This document shows positions 6,670 to 45,479 of a DNA stretch of 64,000 nt, piece by piece. The DNA is taken from the NCBI GenBank assembly GCA_903888345.1, contig CAISTG010000034.1, positions 6,823 through 70,822 of the forward strand. Reading direction: 5' to 3'. Every line of letters begins with the position of its first letter. The first letter of the stretch is position 1. Position numbers and translations under genes: made by a program. The DNA is from Candidatus Buchananbacteria bacterium (GTDB lineage: Bacteria; Patescibacteriota; Patescibacteriia; 2-01-FULL-39-33). The notes below the pieces were generated by a model. The model made no database searches, was not told the origin of the DNA, and saw only the letters and a list, made by a program, of their open reading frames with translations.

Positions 6670-7848
6670 CTAGAACTTCCAACAGGCCGAAACGCCGGCC
6701 GTGGCCACCTTAGTCGATATTTCACGACCGTAAACTTCATTAAGGCCCCAGCCGTAGCTGAGAGAAGTAATGACGCTAAAGCTGTCAGTCGGCGAATACT
6801 TGACGCGCCCACCAACTGCCCAGCCATTGGCATCGGGAGTCATGAAATCGGCGGTCTTGGTGATGGCCTTATTCATATACGTTACCCCGCCACCAACTGT
6901 CCAGCGCTCGTTAATGACATGGCTAGCCCCAACATTGATGGCGATATTGTCTTGCCAATTGAGGCTGACCAGTTTCACGATCGGCAACTTGTCAAAGTGA
7001 ACCTGTGCCGTGTTCAGACTGGTTTCGGAATAACCGAAGTAAGTCAGCTGTGCGACAAGCAGCCAATCAGCTCGCGGCTGATAACCAACCGAGAAATCAA
7101 GCTTCTCCGGAAACTCATACTTCAGCTTCACGTTGTCGCGGACACTGATTCCAGCATTGACCGAGCAATGCCCACGCAAATCAACTGTAACCTTCGACAA
7201 GTAATTCATGCCGACAGCGACCTGATCCGTTACCTGATACATAGCGCCGATCTGAAATCCATAGCCAAAGCCAATGGTCTGCATGTCAACACGTATCGGC
7301 AGCGGCACCCGATTGATGTCGAAGGGGCCGCTCCAGTTCATCATACTCATAACAAGTACTGGACCAGCACCAATCGACAACTTGTCAGTTAACTGTTTGG
7401 ACAGGTACGGCTTAATATAGGTTCCCGAAACCAAAGTCCGCGAATCCATGCCATACCAGATGTCTTTAAAAGACGCACCGATACCAAAGTTGGTATGGAT
7501 ATCCACGCCCCAGACCATGTCGTCGCCCAGTTTTCGGGCGTATGAAACAGCCGGCAAAATATGGATCATATCCTTGGAGGTGAACTCCTGACGCCGACTG
7601 TCTTTGTAACCAAACTTGGGGCCCATGGCCTCCATGCCGATCTCAAGATAGTTATTCGAGTCAAGCAGCTGAAACTGTCGCAACTGAAGCTTGCTGCCGA
7701 GATTGTGCGGGAACTTCGGGCCATCCGGGTCAGAGCCCAGCCCGATATCTGTGGTTCCGGTCGCCGCAATACGGCTCAAACCGCCAGCCAGTGCCACCTG
7801 ACAGACACCAAACGCCAAAATAACCAGCATCAAAGTCAGCTTCTTCAT
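6670..7848 (-). CDS. Outer-membrane beta-barrel protein, FadL/OmpP1-like (hydrophobic-compound channel family)
   Basis: Signal peptide MKKLTLMLVILAFGVCQVALA; alternating amphipathic beta-strand pattern, aromatic girdle and C-terminal ...CWKF terminal Phe. GC-rich; strong SD AAGGAGAG. Confidence 0.55.
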   Translation of the reverse strand: MKKLTLMLVILAFGVCQVALAGGLSRIAATGTTDIGLGSDPDGPKFPHNLGSKLQLRQFQLLDSNNYLEIGMEAMGPKFGYKDSRRQEFTSKDMIHILPAVSYARKLGDDMVWGVDIHTNFGIGASFKDIWYGMDSRTLVSGTYIKPYLSKQLTDKLSIGAGPVLVMSMMNWSGPFDINRVPLPIRVDMQTIGFGYGFQIGAMYQVTDQVAVGMNYLSKVTVDLRGHCSVNAGISVRDNVKLKYEFPEKLDFSVGYQPRADWLLVAQLTYFGYSETSLNTAQVHFDKLPIVKLVSLNWQDNIAINVGASHVINERWTVGGGVTYMNKAITKTADFMTPDANGWAVGGRVKYSPTDSFSVITSLSYGWGLNEVYGREISTKVATAGVSACWKF

Positions 7849-38330: not shown

Positions 38331-38388
38331 GCGGAATTGAACCGCCGTCACGCGAACCTTCACCCTGGTAAATAGGTGTCGGGATGAC
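38331..38388 (-). pseudogene. tRNA 3'-half-like fragment (variable region + T-arm GGCGG/TTCAATT/CCGCC + acceptor 3' strand CAGCCCG-A); no 5' half found
   Basis: Abuts the 3' end of tRNA-Pro. The sequence differs from the tRNA-Pro and tRNA-Thr 3' halves, and the cloverleaf cannot be completed. Confidence 0.35.
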
Positions 38389-38461
38389 CCGATTTGAACG
38401 GGCGACCTCGTCGTCCCGAACGACGCGCGCTACCATCTGCGCTACACCCCGAAAATTTAAC
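38389..38461 (-). tRNA. tRNA-Pro (anticodon CGG)
   Basis: Manual cloverleaf: C1:G72 pair typical of bacterial tRNA-Pro, D-stem GCGC/GCGC, anticodon stem CGTCG/CGACG with loop TTCGGGA, T-loop TTCAAAT. Confidence 0.85.
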
Positions 38462-39119: not shown

Positions 39120-40457
39120 CTAGTATTGTAAAACAGTCTTAAATTTCTTTGTTTCTTTGGTCTTACCAAAAACAATCTTCTCGATATTATAAGTACCGTA
39201 TTTCGGCGCTTCAATAAAACCCGCCATCGCTGCCTCGGCTAACCAACCAGAATGCAACCAATCACAAAGCCATTCACCAGTATATTTGGGATCATCCTGA
39301 TCAATTCCCGCCCCAATTAATTGTAACCACTTCTGATTAAATTTTTCTTGACTGCCAACCGGTGGCGCCATAATAATCGGTAAACCTAAAGCACAATAAA
39401 AACATAATTCCGATGGCTTAGTCCAAAGAATATCTGATTCACGCAGCGCCTTATTAAAAGTTTTGAAATATTGATGCTTATTAGATTCAAAAATTATATT
39501 AATACCCTTACCCAACTCTCGAGATAATTTTAATTTCTTTAGTTCCTCTTTAAAATATTCAGCTACTTGCTGATTAGTACCCGCCACCAAATTTAAGCGC
39601 ATCTTACCATCCAAAATATACTTTTTAATACTGAAGGCAACTTCGACCCCCAATTCACGTTGAGCGCCAGCACCGCCAACGGCAAAAGTAATGGTTAAAG
39701 GCCGTGATTTATGTAATTTAAAATTAGACCCCAAATGAGAATGAATTGAGGGTTTGAATTGATTAATATATACGCGTCCCGGATCCAAATTAATTAGACG
39801 CTTCCCCAGATCCGCTTTCAAAATTTTTAAATTAACGCCAACATTTTCCTGAGGCAAGGGGAAACCAGTCAAAATAATCCGATCTTCCGTCACGCCATAC
39901 AACTTTAGGCGATCAGCCACCCGCCGATTAGAAGCAAAGTAAATAATCCGGCTATCTTGAGGCTTAGGCGGTACCCAGGCACGTGAAATATCCGCATCAC
40001 ACAAAATACAATAAATTTCTCCAGGATAATCGAAATACTCTGCCATCATCGCCGTCACAAAAAACGTGGTAATAAATGGGAGTGGCGTTTTCGCTAATTT
40101 AGAAATCAGATGCTTGCCCCAATCACCTTCCTCAAAAAATTTATAAATCTGTTTTAATTGCAAATTAGAAGTCGATAAATCACGCTTCGGATAAAAATTC
40201 GGAATGGCCTGCAATTTATCGTATAAACTAAAAACTCGATCACCAATAAGTGGTACCATTTTAAACCGCGAGACAAATTCATAAAAGCCACGCGAGTTCT
40301 CCCAAATAAATTTGTCTTTTTCGGGAATGCCAACATAAGTATTAGCGGTAATAATACCCTTGTAGGCAATATTCTTTAAGGGGTAGGCAGCGCGTTGATG
40401 ACCATAGCCCATATCAACTGTCACCACCCACGCTTTTTGTGGAAGTTTAGAAGTCAT
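39120..40457 (-). CDS. GT-B fold glycosyltransferase (MGDG-synthase/UgtP-like, GT28-like)
   Basis: 445 aa; N-terminal VDMGYGHQRAAYPL resembles the G-x-GH motif of MGDG synthase / YpfP. Motif similarity only. Confidence 0.45.
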   Translation of the reverse strand: MTSKLPQKAWVVTVDMGYGHQRAAYPLKNIAYKGIITANTYVGIPEKDKFIWENSRGFYEFVSRFKMVPLIGDRVFSLYDKLQAIPNFYPKRDLSTSNLQLKQIYKFFEEGDWGKHLISKLAKTPLPFITTFFVTAMMAEYFDYPGEIYCILCDADISRAWVPPKPQDSRIIYFASNRRVADRLKLYGVTEDRIILTGFPLPQENVGVNLKILKADLGKRLINLDPGRVYINQFKPSIHSHLGSNFKLHKSRPLTITFAVGGAGAQRELGVEVAFSIKKYILDGKMRLNLVAGTNQQVAEYFKEELKKLKLSRELGKGINIIFESNKHQYFKTFNKALRESDILWTKPSELCFYCALGLPIIMAPPVGSQEKFNQKWLQLIGAGIDQDDPKYTGEWLCDWLHSGWLAEAAMAGFIEAPKYGTYNIEKIVFGKTKETKKFKTVLQY

Positions 40458-40529
40458 AGTTAATTCAAGTATAACATAAAACCCTGCTTAGTTAAAAGCA
40501 GGGTTTTATTAATTCGAATCAAATAATAA

Positions 40530-40817
40530 TTATTTGCCTAAGCAAGATTCTTTAGCAGCTTTAGCGACGCGGAATTTAACCACAGTCTTAGCTGGGATCT
40601 TGATAGTTTCACCAGTAGCTGGGTTTCTACCTTCACGAGCTTTACGAGCAACTTTAACTAACTTACCGAAGCCTGGTACTACAAATTCACCATTCTTCTT
40701 TACTTCTGAATAAGCCAATGTAGTTAGGGTATCCATTAACCCAATTACATCTTTCTTTGCCAAGCCGGTCTTCTCAGCTAAGGCGCTCATAAGAGCTGAT
40801 TTAGTCATTTTAGCCAT
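40530..40817 (-). CDS. hup: HU family DNA-binding protein
   Basis: 95 aa; ...GFGKLVKVARKAREGRNPATGETIKIPAKTVVKFR arm motif. Confidence 0.85.
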   Translation of the reverse strand: MAKMTKSALMSALAEKTGLAKKDVIGLMDTLTTLAYSEVKKNGEFVVPGFGKLVKVARKAREGRNPATGETIKIPAKTVVKFRVAKAAKESCLGK

Positions 40818-40979
40818 AATCTTAAGATTATTTAATTATTAATTTTTAAAAACCTTATTTTCATTGGGGGTTTTATCCACACCCTCAATTCAATATAATC
40901 ATTATATAGTAAAAACAAAGAAAAGGCTAATATTTTGTCAATGTTTAATTCCAGCCTCAAGGCATTAAACTAACCCGAC

Positions 40980-41008
40980 TTGACATTTTGCTAATTTTTT
41001 GCTAAAAT
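40980..41008 (+). promoter_or_regulatory. Sigma70 promoter (TTGACA-17-TAAAAT) for the plus-strand paralog operon
   Basis: cTTGACAttttgctaattttttgcTAAAATagcgg lies about 70 nt upstream of 41079. Confidence 0.5.
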
Positions 41009-41078
41009 AGCGGGAAGTGTCTGATAGTAAATCAGGCCAAAAGGACCTTGAAAATTCAACGGAAAAGGAACTGCCATA

Positions 41079-41606
41079 ATGGAAGCAACTAGCGATGTCA
41101 GTACTGGTCGGATTTCTACATTGCGCCTGTACAGCGACACGGCCGCCAAGATCAATCAGCGCAAGTTTAATCTGATTATATCCTATCTAGGCGAACAACT
41201 AGCCGATGCTCTGGCAATAATTGGAATTCTCGCTTTGTCCTGGTTCTATCAACCAAGTGACTTGAGTGAATTAATTCCCTGCCTGATCACTGCTCTCTTG
41301 ATGGTTATGCCACTAGGGACCACGTTATTGATACTTAGGTCGGCGCGAAAATCAAAGAAACTCAAGCAAGAACTGGAGACACTTTTGCCAGCGATGCTAA
41401 TCGAAACGCGCGATTTATTTCTACGCGACGAACAAAGCAAGCAAGACACGGACTTGGTCTTAATTGAACCCGGTCTTCATCCGCTCGAGGATCTCGACGG
41501 TACCAGATTCATCATCAAAGGAACTGAAATATACGGTGACTGGAAAGAACTTAAACGCCATGACAAAATTCAAAACGGCGGCATTCGCTTGATCGAAAAA
41601 CTGTAA
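41079..41606 (+). CDS. Paralog 1 of a 2-TM membrane protein family with conserved PGL(H/Y)PLE motif
   Basis: 175 aa; ...LIEPGLHPLEDLDGTRFIIKGTE. Region is GC-richer (~50% by eye). Confidence 0.5.
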   Translation: MEATSDVSTGRISTLRLYSDTAAKINQRKFNLIISYLGEQLADALAIIGILALSWFYQPSDLSELIPCLITALLMVMPLGTTLLILRSARKSKKLKQELETLLPAMLIETRDLFLRDEQSKQDTDLVLIEPGLHPLEDLDGTRFIIKGTEIYGDWKELKRHDKIQNGGIRLIEKL

Positions 41607-41629
41607 TTCAACCAACAGGGAGAAAAACC

Positions 41630-42160
41630 GTGGGTATTTGGAAAAACGCGAAGTGGCTAAATTTTGAACAGAGATTCATCAATATCTCAGAGCCGGGTGA
41701 GATCCTAACAGCGCGGCTTTATGATGATGTCGTTGCTAGCAACCTGAAGCAGCACTACGACAATTGGCGGCTCTGCTTCAAGCTTATGTTCAGTATTATT
41801 GTTGCGGCAATTATATTGCTGGTACTATGCTTTCAGTTTCATTGTGTTTCCATCTGGCTCGTTCTAATTATCATTATGACCTTCGTGCCGATCCAATGTA
41901 TTGCCTCGCAAAATGCCATTCAGTACCGCTGCTTACTGGAACCGCAACTACCAGCATTGCTAGTCAACACACCAAGAATTCTCTTGGGCGAAGAAAACAA
42001 TCGTGGTGCTGGCGAAGTCATCGTCGGTCCCGGCCTCTACTCGTATATGCCGACTGACGATCCTTCGGTTTTCCGATTTAAGCGTGGCACACTAGTTTTT
42101 CATGCGAACATCGCTGCTGGTGCTGGATCGCAACTTAAATTGATCACCAAAATCTGGTAA
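41630..42160 (+). CDS. Paralog 2 (GTG start) of the same family
   Basis: 176 aa; SD AGGGAG 8 nt upstream of GTG; ...LLEPQLPALLV...VIVGPGLYSYMPTDD. Confidence 0.5.
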   Translation: MGIWKNAKWLNFEQRFINISEPGEILTARLYDDVVASNLKQHYDNWRLCFKLMFSIIVAAIILLVLCFQFHCVSIWLVLIIIMTFVPIQCIASQNAIQYRCLLEPQLPALLVNTPRILLGEENNRGAGEVIVGPGLYSYMPTDDPSVFRFKRGTLVFHANIAAGAGSQLKLITKIW

Positions 42161-42186
42161 TCAGCCACCAGCAAGAAAGGCAAGCA

Positions 42187-42657
42187 ATGAACGACTCAAA
42201 GATATCCGACGGCCAACTCAAGACAACGACCTACTTTTCTAGCCAACAGGCTCGGGAATGCAAAAGAAAATATGATGAAATAATCAATTGTCGCTCTTAT
42301 GCGAGACAATTAGTATTGACCCTCGCACTAGCTTCCGGAATCTTGCTATTCTCTCCTACTATTATTGGCGCCAAAATTTTGATTGGCGTGTCAATCTTAT
42401 CAATTGGCATGTATTCCTTCTTCCGCAGTGCCGTTGCCAAACGCGAAGCTGAGCTCAAGCCGCTCTACCCCGCACTGCTGGTTAGAGACGATACTTGTCT
42501 CCGATTTTCCGGGGAAGCGATTACTCTGAAGCCGGGATTATACCCGCTAGAAGAAACCGGCATGGAAACGATCACGATTAGCGGCACCAAACGCACTATG
42601 TTGCGAAGTGAGCTGGGGCAGATTATCAAGCTCAATACCGTGACTCTACTGAATTAA
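42187..42657 (+). CDS. Paralog 3 of the same family
   Basis: 156 aa; RSAVAKREAELKPLYPALLVRDD...ITLKPGLYPLEETG aligns with paralog 1. Confidence 0.5.
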   Translation: MNDSKISDGQLKTTTYFSSQQARECKRKYDEIINCRSYARQLVLTLALASGILLFSPTIIGAKILIGVSILSIGMYSFFRSAVAKREAELKPLYPALLVRDDTCLRFSGEAITLKPGLYPLEETGMETITISGTKRTMLRSELGQIIKLNTVTLLN

Positions 42658-42714
42658 CTCTGAACTTTCAAAATAACCCCGAACGCCTAACAGCGTCCGG
42701 GGCTTTTTATTTTT

Positions 42715-43470
42715 TTAATATTTTTTATTACCAATGTTCCAGAAATAATCGTAAATACTTTTGACGCTACCGACAATTGCTTGATGATGGCAAGCGACGA
42801 CAAACGGCGGCTTGCCCGAAAATAAAACCAGCAAATTTCCGACAAACCAAATTGAAGCGGTAAAATTAATTTCTTTTGGCAACTCCCTGATTTCAATATT
42901 TTGTGCCGATAATTTTTTATTATCAATTCCAGCAAATGTTCCGATTGGTACTAAAGTCTTAGTAATAATCCCCTGCTTTTTCTTTAAACTTAAAAGCACT
43001 CGGTTAAAATCTTCCGAAAATATTTTTTGATAATTGCCCTGATGTGGGGCATCAATCGTATAAATAACCGACTTAGCCGGCAAATTAATCAATAACTTTT
43101 CAATAAAATTCTTAATCCCTTTTTGCGTATCATAAATATTAGCAAAAGGAAAATTTGCCTCGGAACGATACAACTCCGACAACGATTCTTCAAGTGAACT
43201 TGCGAGTGTTCGTTTATGATCAAAAATAGTTTGTAAAGTCTTCGGCGACTCCACCCAATAATAAGTCATCCCCTTGTAATGATTGGTCGACAAATAATTC
43301 TCACTAGCTAAGTGTTCCAAATTATCAATGGTCGTCGTTCGCGGCAAGCCGACTTTCTTAGCAACTCTAGAGGCTGGTGCCTCGCCGAGCTCAGTTAAGG
43401 CCAAATAGACCTTAATGGCATTATCCTTTAAACCTAACTCTTTGAGGATTTTTTTGAGTTGAACTGGCAT
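42715..43470 (-). CDS. TrmB-like HTH transcriptional regulator
   Basis: 251 aa; N-terminal winged HTH (LKDNAIKVYLALTELGEAPASRVAKKVGLPRTTTIDNLEHL) plus a C-terminal effector-like domain. Confidence 0.55.
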   Translation of the reverse strand: MPVQLKKILKELGLKDNAIKVYLALTELGEAPASRVAKKVGLPRTTTIDNLEHLASENYLSTNHYKGMTYYWVESPKTLQTIFDHKRTLASSLEESLSELYRSEANFPFANIYDTQKGIKNFIEKLLINLPAKSVIYTIDAPHQGNYQKIFSEDFNRVLLSLKKKQGIITKTLVPIGTFAGIDNKKLSAQNIEIRELPKEINFTASIWFVGNLLVLFSGKPPFVVACHHQAIVGSVKSIYDYFWNIGNKKY

Positions 43471-43669
43471 AAATATGGGTTATTTCGCTGTTGCTGTCGG
43501 AAAAATCCGACAGTAGTAGCCGTATTTATTATCTAAATTTAAATAAAAAAATAATATGACTTCTTGACTTTCCCGAGAATTTCAGCTAAAATAATCAATC
43601 ACTGCTATTATTATAGCAGTAAATGATTGAACATTAAAAACGGTCTAAAACCCGAAAAGGAACAGCGTT

Positions 43670-44722
43670 ATGAAAAAGAACCTGATCGTCTTCCCTGGAA
43701 CCTTTTGCCCACCCACTTACGGTCACCATGAAATCGTCAAAATGGCCGCGGAAATTTTCCCTTGTGGCGTTACGATTATGGCTTCGGCCAATCCCGATAA
43801 AGACAACTGGTTTACTCAAGAAGAACGCGCCGCCATGTGGCAAGCTTATGACCTGCCCAGTAATGTTCGCGTAACGACCCTAGATCAGATGCAACGTGAA
43901 GAAGTTGATTTTACTACTATGGTCATGGTTCGCGGTATTCGCAATCAAGACGACTATATTCATGAGCAATCCGTCATGGAACTAAATTTTAATGGTTATG
44001 GAATTAGCAAATACTTCTATATCATGACCACCGGCGAATTCCGCGAGCTGTCCTCATCGAGAGCCCGCGCTGCCGCCAGTGAACTGCGCTTAGCTGATCT
44101 AGCCAAGTATGTGCCACCGCAGATTGCAGGACAACTACTTGAATACGTCTTGCAAGCCAAAAATATTTTCTTGGTCGTCGGACGACCGGGATCAGGTAAG
44201 TCAACTTGGTTAAAGTCAGTGGTTGAAGTTGATCCTTCTGCCTACCATCTTGATGGCGATCAACTGAATAAAGAGCTGCGACCCGAACTAGTAGCAGCCT
44301 TCCCTGGCGTCGACCTGATCGAACTGGCTATGACTAACGAAGCCGCCTTGCTCGAAGTATTGGCCCCCAAATGGCTGGCACTACTGGGCGAACGGCTGAA
44401 ACAAGTACCGCCTGGTCGCAACGTCTACGTTGAAGCCGCTTATGGACTTGAAGCCAACAAACAACTTTACCGCTATCTCGGCAGTAAAGTCATTCATGTT
44501 GGTTGCCAAGATCCGGCAGTGAATCAAGAGCGGATTGCCGCTCGTGGCACCAGCCGACATCAAGCCTTCGTCGAGAAGATTCCTGATCTTTGCGAGTCGG
44601 TTATGATCGCCGCTTCCGAAAAGCTATCCCTCAAACTCGTGGACACTTCCGGCAGTCTGGAAGATCTCAAACAAACTACCAAAGACTTTGTCAGCGACCT
44701 CCATCAAGGAACCTCATCATGA
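43670..44722 (+). CDS. Fusion protein: cytidylyltransferase-like nucleotidyltransferase (HxGH) + P-loop kinase domain (NadR-like NMNAT/nucleoside-kinase or PPAT-kinase)
   Basis: N-terminal LIVFPGTFCPPTYGHHEIV (G-x-F-x-P-x-H-x-GH Rossmann motif); C-terminal Walker A VVGRPGSGKSTWL. Confidence 0.6.
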   Translation: MKKNLIVFPGTFCPPTYGHHEIVKMAAEIFPCGVTIMASANPDKDNWFTQEERAAMWQAYDLPSNVRVTTLDQMQREEVDFTTMVMVRGIRNQDDYIHEQSVMELNFNGYGISKYFYIMTTGEFRELSSSRARAAASELRLADLAKYVPPQIAGQLLEYVLQAKNIFLVVGRPGSGKSTWLKSVVEVDPSAYHLDGDQLNKELRPELVAAFPGVDLIELAMTNEAALLEVLAPKWLALLGERLKQVPPGRNVYVEAAYGLEANKQLYRYLGSKVIHVGCQDPAVNQERIAARGTSRHQAFVEKIPDLCESVMIAASEKLSLKLVDTSGSLEDLKQTTKDFVSDLHQGTSS

Positions 44723-45387
44723 AAACTGAAATCAAAGCCAGGTTGAAACAGCGCTTTGCGCTGCTGTGTAAAAGATTTGCGGAAGCCAAGCAACTTACCG
44801 ATACTGATGCCAAGATTGAGAAGTGGTGGAAAGTTCTGGATGAATGTTATAGTGCTAGCCAGCGTGCTTACCACAATTGGGAACACGTTGCCGCGTGCTT
44901 AGAGGAGTTCGATCGGGTCATTCACCTGTTCGATAATCCCCTTGCCGCTGAAGCCGCAATATTCTTCCATGACGCGAAATACGATCCTTTCGCCACCGAC
45001 AATGAAGCCGTTAGTGCGGAAATGCTCGGAGAATTTTACGCTGACTTTGGTTGGCCGGACACTATTGCCAAGAAACTGGTTAATAGCACCGACCATAAGG
45101 CGACCAGCAAAGATAACGACGAGCAATTGCTCTGCGATATCGACCTGGCAATTCTGGGTCAGCCGTGGCCTCGCTACATCTGTTACGCCCAGGATATTAG
45201 AAAAGAATATCAAGCGGTACCTCTGGCTGCTTATCGCACCAAACGGATCGAGGTTTTGAAGAAACTTCGCGACCGTGAACCACTATTTCAGACGGAATAT
45301 TTCCAGCGCCAGTATAAGCTGAACGCCGAGAGCAATCTGACTGCCGAAATCATGGCCCTGGCGCATGAGCAGTTCCCTAACTACTAA
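44719..45387 (+). CDS. HD-domain metal-dependent phosphohydrolase (start overlaps upstream stop, ATGA)
   Basis: 222 aa from MKTEIKA; HNWEHV and FFHDAKYD motifs (H...HD...D); translationally coupled to 43670..44722. Confidence 0.55.
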   Translation: MKTEIKARLKQRFALLCKRFAEAKQLTDTDAKIEKWWKVLDECYSASQRAYHNWEHVAACLEEFDRVIHLFDNPLAAEAAIFFHDAKYDPFATDNEAVSAEMLGEFYADFGWPDTIAKKLVNSTDHKATSKDNDEQLLCDIDLAILGQPWPRYICYAQDIRKEYQAVPLAAYRTKRIEVLKKLRDREPLFQTEYFQRQYKLNAESNLTAEIMALAHEQFPNY

Positions 45388-45479
45388 GCGCACCTTTACG
45401 TCCCGAACAACAAATTTGTTCGGGACTTTTTATTTACAAAAAAACCGAGCCTCGCGGCTCGGTTTTTCTTATATAGCTA

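What the first reader, a model, noticed from the sequence alone, without database searches (positions are those of the whole stretch)
40930..42657. Plus-strand, GC-richer operon of three tandem paralogous 2-TM proteins
Three genes of 156-176 aa, 23-26 nt apart, share the C-terminal signature RSA..K..L..L.PALLV..D..L....PGL(Y/H)PLE....I.GT. They lie on the minority strand in a ~50% GC stretch, with a TTGACA-17-TAAAAT promoter and canonical SDs (one with a GTG start). A divergent TrmB-like regulator lies immediately downstream. Tandem triplication of a small membrane protein next to a regulator suggests a diversifying surface, immunity or transport family of unknown function.
Basis: seen in the sequence. 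Interest (0 to 1): 0.5.

Follow-up and report, generated by a model that had tools for sequence, protein, structure and literature searches.

The report
Orphan trio of small membrane proteins
Three neighbouring genes in an uncultured bacterium encode related small membrane proteins from a family seen almost nowhere else; the operon is real and dispensable, but nothing ties it to a known function, so it is a modest curiosity rather than a discovery.

Summary
The core observation holds. Three co-oriented + strand genes (175, 176 and 156 aa, gaps 23 and 26 nt) lie behind a near-consensus promoter and ahead of an intrinsic terminator. They are true paralogues. Their soluble N- and C-terminal parts alone score far above shuffled controls, so the similarity is not a transmembrane-composition artefact.

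Three details need correcting:
- GC is 45.9% (GC3 about 50%), not about 50%.
- The raised GC covers the whole 40.8-45.5 kb block, not just the trio.
- The TrmB-like regulator is convergent, not divergent.

Each protein is predicted to be an N-in/C-in helical hairpin with almost no external loop and an ~80-aa cytoplasmic beta domain. A diversifying surface role is therefore unlikely.

An exhaustive HMM search of 1.84 billion representative proteins found only the three genes plus one fragment from another metagenome. Close relatives have the same backbone genes but lack the trio, so it is an accessory cassette in a variable slot.

Best guess, at low confidence: a hetero-oligomeric inner-membrane accessory complex. 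Interest is low to moderate.

The parts
40980..41008 (+). Sigma-70-type promoter TTGACA-17 nt-TAAAAT with TG extended -10. The heptamer TTGCTAA occurs twice in the spacer/-10 region.
   Evidence: Consensus scan, 11/12 matches, best site in 40400-43700; sequence read directly. Function inferred, not shown.
41009..41078 (+). About 70-nt 5' leader with a small hairpin (GTCTGAT...ATCAGGC) and the SD-like AAAGGAA 9 nt before the ATG
   Evidence: Sequence; RNA fold -13.4 kcal/mol. No Rfam family in the window other than two tRNAs.
41079..41606 (+). Gene 1 (175 aa). N-terminal cytoplasmic region of ~38 aa, TM hairpin (~39-57, ~65-86), C-terminal ~85-aa beta domain.
   Evidence: ORF; hydropathy; charge distribution. 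AF2 of the C-domain gives pLDDT 80.8, pTM 0.68: six strands, a helix, a strand. The exact protein occurs on 8 contigs.
41630..42160 (+). Gene 2 (176 aa, GTG start, SD GGGAG 7 nt upstream). The most divergent paralogue, with the same layout.
   Evidence: ORF; BLASTP to g3 E=4e-4. Leave-one-out HMM of the C-domain scores 22.2 bits against a shuffle maximum of 7.8. The N-terminal motif aligns with g1 and g3, which supports the GTG start.
42187..42657 (+). Gene 3 (156 aa). Same layout, with a 6-aa shorter C-domain.
   Evidence: ORF; BLASTP to g1 E=5e-9. AF2 full length gives pLDDT 68.7: helices 19-55 and 59-93, then a beta domain.
42677..42716 (.). Intrinsic terminator: CCCCGAACGCC-loop-GCGTCCGGGG followed by CTTTTTATTTTTTT. 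It sits between the convergent gene 3 and the regulator gene, so it probably acts in both directions.
   Evidence: Sequence; fold -16.7 kcal/mol. The simple scan missed it because of one stem mismatch.
40844..42714 (.). Segment present in the window but absent from the syntenic relative L013, where the regulator stop and the HU start are 90 bp apart. This is the accessory cassette (promoter, three genes, terminator).
   Evidence: L013 ORFs. BLASTN homology to L013 ends at window 40843 on one side and inside the regulator gene on the other. No flanking direct or inverted repeats.
42715..43470 (-). Neighbour, not shown to belong: a TrmB-like HTH regulator convergent with gene 3
   Evidence: PF01978 E=1.2e-9. 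It is conserved next to the PPAT/AAA gene without the trio in L005 and L011, and next to HU in L013.

Best explanation
Shown by tool results:
- This is a real, co-oriented three-gene operon with its own strong promoter and terminator.
- It encodes three anciently diverged paralogues of an orphan protein family.
- It sits as an accessory cassette in a variable slot of an otherwise conserved backbone (TypA ... HU-DUF6938-SpoU).
- No catalytic-type residue is conserved. The invariant positions are Leu, Ala, Pro, Gly and Thr, which points to a structural or binding domain.

Predicted:
- Each protein inserts in the cytoplasmic membrane as a helical hairpin with both ends in the cytoplasm and an external loop of only 2-7 residues.
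- A conserved N-terminal helix and an ~80-aa C-terminal small beta-barrel-like domain (six strands, a helix, a strand) lie under the membrane.

Inferred:
- The three are translated from one transcript in roughly equal amounts, and all three have been kept despite 70-75% sequence divergence.
- They therefore most likely assemble into one hetero-oligomeric inner-membrane complex. The cytoplasmic beta domains would pack side by side beneath a bundle of six or more TM helices.
- This is the unfused counterpart of the (2 TM + beta domain) x3 layout of YdbT-type proteins.

Speculative:
- The complex serves a dispensable envelope function such as protection against, or handling of, a membrane-active peptide or other membrane stress. 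It is not a surface-exposed or enzymatic function.

The confidence of 0.35 applies to the inferred hetero-oligomeric complex reading. The shown parts alone would rate about 0.85-0.9, and the speculative function well below 0.35.
For: Gene reality and operon structure:
- ORFs, spacing, SD motifs, promoter and terminator.
- No competing ORF longer than 66 aa on the other strand.

Paralogy outside the TM segments:
-.
- A fourth member (P0004) from a different organism matches the profile over its C-domain (5.7e-11 against 1.84 billion proteins), so the domain is under selection.

Topology and fold:
- Hydropathy, helical hairpin in AF2, positive-inside counts, C-domain model with pLDDT 80.8.

Accessory status:
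- L013 has regulator-HU-DUF6938-SpoU in the same order with only 90 bp where the trio sits.
- L026 is the closest relative found (TypA 88%, DUF6938 81%, HU 95% identity). There, and in L034, TypA lies 201 and 155 bp from HU.
- Six-frame HMM searches of all 37 loci find the family only in copies of this locus and in L004.

Architectural analogy:
- YdbS is 2 TM + 1 PHb domain. YdbT is 6 TM + 3 PHb domains (PMC8657885).
- DUF304, DUF1200 and DUF2244 proteins carry two N-terminal TM helices and an intracellular PHb domain that lacks strand beta1, giving six strands plus a helix. They are proposed to form oligomeric rings (PMC2817789).
Against: - No direct evidence of complex formation, expression or phenotype.
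- The only comparative data are one population (all contigs 100% identical) and one 94-aa fragment.
- The AF2 models rest on a four-sequence alignment. The full-length model is only moderate (pLDDT 68.7).
- Homology to bPH families was tested and not found, so the functional analogy rests on architecture alone.
- There is no toxin, bacteriocin, ABC transporter or phage gene next to the trio to support a protective role.
- Three paralogues could equally act independently.
Confidence: 0.35

Rival explanations
1. The three proteins are true but extremely divergent members of the bacterial PH-domain membrane proteins (the DUF304/bPH_2 YdbS-YdbT superfamily). On this view the resemblance is homology, not analogy, and they work as those proteins do, for example as YdbS/YdbT or DdE/DdF in export of, or resistance to, leaderless bacteriocins.
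For: - Same layout: two TM helices, then an intracellular beta-rich domain of ~75-85 aa ending in a helix.
- The modules come in tandem, and YdbT fuses three of them.
- Six strands plus a helix matches the 'PHb lacking beta1' description for DUF304, DUF1200 and DUF2244.
- The hhalign test has limited power. The DUF304-DUF2244 link proposed in the literature also scored only 0.3%.
Against: - No Pfam bPH model hit at E ≤ 10 for full-length proteins or C-domains.
- hhalign of the family against DUF304, DUF1200 and DUF2244 seed alignments gives probability ≤ 1.3%. The positive control DUF304-DUF1200 gives 92.5%.
- There is an extra strand after the helix.
- There is no adjacent bacteriocin or ABC transporter gene.
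Confidence: 0.2
2. The trio is an array of independently acting, diversified protective (immunity-type) membrane proteins. Each would neutralise a different membrane-targeting toxin or peptide from competitors, as orphan immunity gene arrays do.
For: - Tandem, highly diverged paralogues of a small membrane protein.
- Accessory, patchy distribution in a variable genomic slot.
- The family diverges faster than its neighbours: P0004 is 39% identical to its best paralogue, while the adjacent regulator is 61% identical.
Against: - No cognate toxin gene, secretion system or polymorphic-toxin marker is adjacent.
- The conserved parts are the cytoplasmic domains, not the membrane or external parts where a membrane-acting toxin would be met.
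- No copy-number variation was seen. Every contig that spans a junction between two of the genes shows the same order and sequence.
Confidence: 0.2
3. The trio is a membrane-disrupting defence or toxin-like module of the abortive-infection or holin type. The cytoplasmic domains would sense a trigger, and the TM hairpins would oligomerise to depolarise the membrane.
For: - Small TM-hairpin proteins with cytoplasmic sensor-like domains are common effectors of defence systems (own knowledge).
- Location in a variable slot, absent from close relatives.
Against: - No PADLOC model hit for any of the three.
- The only PHROG 'holin' match is E=0.44, over a TM segment of g2.
- No endolysin, nuclease, NTPase or other partner gene.
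- No relatives in phage, plasmid or IMG/VR collections.
- A near-consensus, apparently constitutive promoter would be hazardous for a lytic effector.
Confidence: 0.1
4. The operon is the regulated target of the adjacent TrmB-like regulator, so its function is tied to that regulator's (sugar- or metabolite-sensing) circuit.
For: - Physical adjacency in the window.
- In L004 a family member again lies just upstream of the convergent regulator gene.
Against: - The genes are convergent and separated by a terminator, not divergent with a shared control region.
- The regulator's conserved partner in L005 and L011 is the divergent PPAT/AAA-HD gene pair.
- Three relatives have the regulator but no trio.
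Confidence: 0.1
5. The ORFs are not functional genes: either chance ORFs or the decaying remains of one longer three-module gene.
For: - Orphan status: four members among about 15 billion proteins.
- The three ORFs are in three different reading frames (coordinates).
Against: - Three ORFs of 156-176 aa in a 40-46% GC sequence, each with its own SD and start.
- Protein-level but not DNA-level similarity between them.
- A homologue is conserved at the protein level in another organism, whose flanking gene is only 68% identical in DNA.
- The AF2 domain model is confident.
Confidence: 0.03

Closest known systems
YdbS/YdbT-type bacterial PH-domain membrane proteins (Pfam bPH_2/DUF304, COG3402/COG3428), including DdE/DdF of the enterocin DD14 locus and LnqC/LnqD and Orf7/Orf8 of other leaderless-bacteriocin loci
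   Same: - Size: YdbS is 159 aa.
- Two N-terminal TM helices followed by an intracellular beta-rich domain of ~75-85 aa ending in a helix.
- Modules occur in tandem in one transcriptional direction, and YdbT carries three such modules (6 TM + 3 PHb).
- Proposed to oligomerise under the membrane (PMC8657885; PMC2817789).
   Different: - No sequence relationship detectable by Pfam HMMs or by hhalign against the published seed alignments.
- No PHb structure among the fold-search hits.
- Here there is a conserved ~40-aa N-terminal cytoplasmic region before TM1, and an extra strand after the helix.
- The modules are three separate genes rather than one single-module gene plus one three-module gene.
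- No bacteriocin or transporter genes nearby.
DUF2244 and DUF1200 (bPH_4) two-TM PHb proteins
   Same: A two-helix membrane anchor with a predicted intracellular six-strand-plus-helix domain (PMC2817789).
   Different: hhalign probability is 0.3-1.3%. Those families are widespread, whereas this one has four known members.
SH3-like small beta-barrels: bacterial SH3b cell-wall-binding domains of NlpC/P60 proteins and endolysins, retroviral integrase C-terminal domains, and eukaryotic SH3
   Different: - SH3b domains act outside the cell on peptidoglycan, whereas this domain is predicted to be cytoplasmic.
- The model has six or seven strands plus a helix, not a five-strand barrel.
Short NfeD-type proteins such as B. 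subtilis YuaF (own knowledge, not tested beyond Pfam)
   Same: A small protein with an N-terminal membrane anchor and a C-terminal soluble beta-barrel.
   Different: - No PF01957 hit.
- No adjacent SPFH/flotillin gene.
- NfeD has no conserved N-terminal cytoplasmic region.

Membership tests
bPH_2 / DUF304 (YdbS-YdbT) and related two-TM PHb families (DUF1200, DUF2244) | Significant match to the family HMM (Pfam PF03703, PF06713, PF10003) | tested here: not met
   hmmscan against Pfam-A at E ≤ 1 (full length) and E ≤ 10 (C-domains) gave no bPH family. Note that HMMER's filters hide most hits above about E=0.1.
bPH_2 / DUF304 (YdbS-YdbT) and related two-TM PHb families (DUF1200, DUF2244) | Profile-profile similarity to the family seed alignments | tested here: not met
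   hhalign of A4 and A2 against the DUF304, DUF1200 and DUF2244 alignments (Fig. S4 of PMC2817789) gave probability 0.2-1.3%. The DUF304-DUF1200 control gave 92.5%. The DUF304-DUF2244 control gave 0.3%, so sensitivity is limited.
bPH_2 / DUF304 (YdbS-YdbT) and related two-TM PHb families (DUF1200, DUF2244) | Two TM helices preceding an intracellular domain of ~80 aa | tested here: met
   Hydropathy, AF2 hairpin, positive-inside charge counts. No dedicated topology predictor was available.
bPH_2 / DUF304 (YdbS-YdbT) and related two-TM PHb families (DUF1200, DUF2244) | PH-like fold: two orthogonal sheets of six or seven strands capped by a C-terminal helix | tested here: inconclusive
   [not shown]
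bPH_2 / DUF304 (YdbS-YdbT) and related two-TM PHb families (DUF1200, DUF2244) | Oligomeric ring assembly of the PHb domains | not testable with these tools
   No multimer prediction was available.
SH3b cell-wall-binding domains | Confident structural match to an SH3b domain and an extracytoplasmic location | tested here: not met
   [not shown]
Holins / phage lysis proteins | Match to a holin family and an adjacent endolysin or phage genes | tested here: not met
   The PHROG holin match is E=0.44, on a TM segment only. The neighbours are HU, a TrmB-like regulator and a PPAT/AAA gene. There are no relatives in the phage or IMG/VR collections.
Known anti-phage defence systems (PADLOC-DB) | Match of any component to a defence-system model | tested here: not met
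   No family at E ≤ 1 for g1, g2 or g3.
TrmB family (the neighbouring regulator only) | N-terminal TrmB-type winged HTH | tested here: met
   PF01978 E=1.2e-9, 38.3 bits against a cut-off of 25.6, residues 9-71. The C-terminal ~180 aa have no Pfam match.

The most novel reading that the evidence does not exclude
The trio could be the founding example of a previously unrecognised class of membrane module. It would be a three-subunit, unfused counterpart of YdbT-like proteins, in which TM hairpins tether a hetero-oligomeric ring of novel cytoplasmic beta-barrel domains. It would be confined so far to one uncultured lineage and evolve too fast to be linked to any known superfamily.
Probability: 0.15. 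Interest if true: 0.45.

Novelty: new variant of a known kind. Interest (0 to 1): 0.27.

Why it matters
If the heteromeric reading is right, the trio would be a natural split version of the (2 TM + small beta domain) x3 design. That could help show how YdbT-like proteins assemble and what the cytoplasmic domains do, which is still unknown for that widespread class.

More modestly, the locus documents a hot spot between TypA and HU where related uncultured bacteria carry different lineage-specific small-protein cassettes. As it stands, this is one more orphan membrane-protein family with no phenotype, so its practical importance is limited.

Tried and rejected
1. Family libraries. Pfam, NCBIfam, PHROGs and PADLOC gave no meaningful hit for any of the three proteins.

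2. PDB sequence search with profiles. The full-length profile (A1) gave only a chance GPCR match at E=0.22. The C-domain profile (A4) gave nothing at E ≤ 10.

3. Homologue searches.
- The word-indexed searches of 5.8 billion clusters returned only the three paralogues themselves and P0004.
- The exhaustive HMM search of 1.84 billion representatives added only P0004.
- Two giant repetitive proteins (P0005, P0006) also passed. On reading them I judged them repeat and composition artefacts.

4. Fold search with the full-length model returned only generic helical hairpins. I re-modelled the C-domain alone, but its matches were weak. The AFDB libraries were unavailable.

5. bPH hypothesis. It is attractive on architecture, but Pfam and hhalign against published seed alignments did not support it. 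I kept it as an analogy only.

6. PilZ, NfeD and MscS-like ideas. There is no Pfam support, and none of these appears among the listed C-domain fold hits. I dropped them.

7. Mobile-element origin.
- No flanking repeats.
- No integrase adjacent.
- No relatives in phage, plasmid or IMG/VR collections.
- The raised GC is shared with neighbouring conserved genes, so it is not good evidence of horizontal transfer.

8. The two small genes that fill the same slot in L030-L033. I tested whether they are distant relatives. hhalign gave 1.7%, so they are not.

9. Other attempts.
- Fetching a YdbS-like plasmid gene (AF447813) failed because the record is not held.
- A literature search for the sample identifiers found nothing relevant.
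- An alignment-based scan of genome contigs with the family failed for lack of a conserved stretch.
Full report
**What is there**

The region holds three + strand ORFs:

| Gene | Coordinates | Length | Start |
|---|---|---|---|
| g1 | 41079-41606 | 175 aa | ATG |
| g2 | 41630-42160 | 176 aa | GTG |
| g3 | 42187-42657 | 156 aa | ATG |

- The genes are separated by 23 and 26 nt, and each is preceded by a purine-rich SD-like motif.
- Nearly all other long ORFs of the window are on the - strand.
- No ORF longer than 66 aa competes on the opposite strand.
- A TTGACA-17-TAAAAT promoter with a TG extended -10 lies at 40980-41008. It is the best-scoring site in the scanned 3.3 kb.
- A GC-rich hairpin followed by a T-run (42677-42716, -16.7 kcal/mol) lies between g3 and the convergent downstream gene.
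- Rfam finds nothing in the window except two tRNAs.

- GC of the three genes is 45.9% (GC3 0.49-0.52), against 40.3% for the window. It is not about 50%.
- The conserved + strand genes at 43670-45387 have GC3 of 0.48-0.55. The shift therefore belongs to the whole 40.8-45.5 kb block (44% GC) and not to the trio alone.
- The TrmB-like gene (42715-43470, - strand; PF01978 E=1.2e-9) is convergent with g3, not divergent.
- The RSA...PLE signature is complete only in g1 and g3. g2 keeps PALLV, PGLY and GT.

**Is the paralogy real?**

Yes.
- BLASTP gives g1-g3 E=5e-9 (30% identity) and g2-g3 E=4e-4. g1-g2 is not significant on its own.
- C-terminal domains scored 21.9-55.0 bits, against at most 10.6 bits in 2000 shuffles.
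- N-terminal soluble regions scored 8.6-15.9 bits, against at most 10.4. No shuffle reached the real score for any member.
- There is no DNA-level repeat between the genes, so the duplications are old.
- The three genes are in three different frames, each with its own start. They are not one broken gene.

**Anatomy of the proteins**

- Each protein has a ~40-aa N-terminal region with a conserved G-x-I/L-x-T...K-R/Q-K-Y/F-D motif.
- Two hydrophobic helices follow, then an ~80-aa C-terminal domain.
- AlphaFold2 models g3 as a long helical hairpin (residues 19-55 and 59-93) followed by a beta domain. The alignment had four sequences and the model reached pLDDT 68.7.
- The g1 C-domain alone reaches pLDDT 80.8 and pTM 0.68. 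It shows six strands, a helix and a final strand.
- K+R counts are 2-5 just before TM1, 0 in the 2-7-residue loop, and 1-6 just after TM2.
- By the positive-inside rule both termini are cytoplasmic, and almost nothing is exposed outside. This is an inference; no dedicated topology predictor was available.
- Conserved C-domain positions are Leu, Ala, Pro, Gly and Thr, with no catalytic-type residue.

**How widespread is the family?**

- It has no match in Pfam, NCBIfam, PHROGs, PADLOC or PDB sequences.
- A word-indexed search of 5.8 billion clusters with g3 alone found only g3 itself; the same search with the four-sequence profile found only the three paralogues (g2 as a fragment) and P0004.
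- An exhaustive HMM search of 1.84 billion representatives found the three paralogues and one more protein, P0004. That hit (E=5.7e-11) is a 94-aa C-terminal fragment on a 990-bp JGI contig.
- Two huge repetitive proteins also passed the threshold. I read them as artefacts.
- All other contigs carrying the genes come from one set of ENA/Logan assemblies. They are 100% identical to the window, apart from one SNP.
- Nothing related was found in the phage, plasmid or IMG/VR collections.

**Genomic context and comparative evidence**

The backbone around the trio is TypA - [variable slot] - HU - DUF6938 - SpoU methylase.

| Locus | Relationship to the window | What lies in or near the slot |
|---|---|---|
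| L026 | Closest relative found: TypA 88%, DUF6938 81%, HU 95% identity | TypA and HU 201 bp apart; window 40818-45479 has no counterpart between them |
| L034 | HU in the same ≥90%-identity cluster | TypA and HU 155 bp apart |
| L030-L033 | HU in the same ≥90%-identity cluster | Two other small orphan genes on the opposite strand, unrelated to this family (hhalign 1.7%) |
| L013 | Regulator 61-65% identical | Regulator, HU, DUF6938 and SpoU in window order, but only 90 bp between regulator and HU; window 40844-42714 is the extra segment |
| L005, L011 | Regulator 53-60% identical | Regulator keeps its divergent PPAT/AAA-HD partners elsewhere in the genome, with no trio |
| L004 | Regulator 61% identical | P0004, then one extra small ORF, then the convergent regulator |

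- The family-regulator position is therefore shared by two lineages, but the distribution is patchy. L004 and L013 have the most similar regulators (68%), and only one of them carries the family.
- The trio is thus a dispensable cassette in a variable slot, and the regulator is not specifically tied to it.
- No terminal repeats or recombinase genes flank it.

**What does it resemble?**

- Fold searches with the full-length model return only generic helical hairpins.
- The closest known kind by architecture is the two-TM bacterial PH-domain proteins.
  - YdbS is 159 aa, with 2 TM and one PHb domain.
  - YdbT is a fusion of three such modules.
  - Relatives DdE/DdF are needed for export of a leaderless bacteriocin (PMC8657885).
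  - The DUF304, DUF1200 and DUF2244 families are described as having two TM helices plus an intracellular PHb domain lacking strand beta1, possibly forming rings (PMC2817789).
- I tested membership directly. I rebuilt the three published seed alignments from that paper's supplementary Fig. S4 and ran hhalign.
  - The trio family scores 0.2-1.3% probability against all three.
  - The DUF304-DUF1200 control scores 92.5%.
  - The DUF304-DUF2244 control also fails at 0.3%, so the test cannot exclude a very remote relationship.
- Verdict: the trio is built like these proteins, but it is not shown to be a member of their family.

**Most likely mechanism**

- Shown by tool results or predicted from them: an accessory three-gene operon of paralogous N-in/C-in hairpin membrane proteins with cytoplasmic beta domains.
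- Inferred: the three are co-translated from one transcript, and all three have been retained despite deep divergence. They probably form one hetero-oligomeric inner-membrane complex, with the beta domains packed beneath the membrane. This would be an unfused analogue of the three-module YdbT.
- Speculative: the complex provides a dispensable envelope function, such as coping with a membrane-active peptide or other membrane stress.
- Rivals: true remote bPH membership; an array of independently acting immunity-type proteins; a defence or lysis effector; a target of the TrmB-like regulator; non-genes. Their evidence and refutation tests are given in the Rival explanations section.

**Verdict**

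The 'surface' and 'regulator-linked' parts of the interpretation are not supported.

The family is new by sequence and extremely rare. However, small orphan membrane-protein cassettes in variable slots of uncultured bacteria are common, and no evidence points to an unusual mechanism. Interest is low to moderate (0.27). The most novel surviving reading, a new class of split YdbT-like membrane module, has perhaps a 15% chance.

Noticed in passing
window 40818-45479: The whole block between TypA and HU (trio, TrmB-like regulator, PPAT/AAA fusion gene, HD-like gene; 44% GC against 40% elsewhere) has no counterpart between TypA and HU in the closest relatives L026 and L034, where the two genes are 201 and 155 bp apart. 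The TypA-HU gap looks like a hot spot for insertion or rearrangement.
   Followed up: partly
L030:4864-5829 (also L031-L033): In another relative the same TypA-HU slot holds two different small genes on the strand opposite to HU: 126 aa with one N-terminal TM, and 149 aa. They are weak paralogues of each other (BLASTP E=8e-4) and are also orphans (four clusters among 5.8 billion). They share a loosely similar '...GT..G.T' C-terminal pattern with the trio, but hhalign probability is only 1.7%.
   Followed up: yes
L008:1-153, against window ~40840: One 964-nt assembly contig (ERZ27313568 k141_749439) matches the window exactly from 40840 onward. Its first 153 nt are unrelated to anything held and end a different + strand ORF. 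The breakpoint coincides with the left edge of the segment missing in L013 (window 40843). This may be a real alternative junction or an assembly chimera.
   Followed up: partly
L004:356-529: In the only other organism with a family member, an extra small ORF lies between that gene and the convergent regulator. It is about 57 aa, has a hydrophobic C-terminal half and is interrupted by a run of N. There is no counterpart in the window.
   Followed up: no
window 42715-45387; L005:8778-10744; L011:4137-6747: The TrmB-like regulator, the divergent PPAT (cytidylyltransferase)-AAA_33 kinase fusion and the overlapping HD-like gene form a module. The regulator and PPAT/AAA gene are conserved in L005 and all three genes in L011 (53-60% regulator identity), in different genomic surroundings. 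This is probably the regulator's real partner set.
   Followed up: partly
L026:8347-10110: In the closest relative a large serine recombinase (Resolvase + Recombinase + Zn_ribbon_recom) lies just after the SpoU methylase gene. At that position the window has tRNA-Pro (38378-38451) and a response-regulator gene. This may be an integrated element at the tRNA in the relative.
   Followed up: no
window 6670-7848 (- strand): This 392-aa ORF has the highest GC (51.6%) and GC3 (0.62) of all long ORFs in the window, well above the mean GC3 of 0.39. It overlaps a 241-aa ORF on the other strand. It was not examined.
   Followed up: no
window 40985-41008 and 41018-41037: The heptamer TTGCTAA occurs twice, 11 nt apart, within the promoter spacer/-10 region. 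A short hairpin (GTCTGAT-N5-ATCAGGC) lies at the start of the leader. These may be operator or leader elements; they were not tested.
   Followed up: no
L005 (CAZEWH010000003.1): The only species-representative genome with a related regulator is titled 'uncultured Gammaproteobacteria bacterium'. I could not verify the label; it does not obviously fit the locus gene content (TrmB-type regulator, PPAT/AAA fusion gene) or the window's (HU-DUF6938 arrangement, many orphan small proteins).
   Followed up: no
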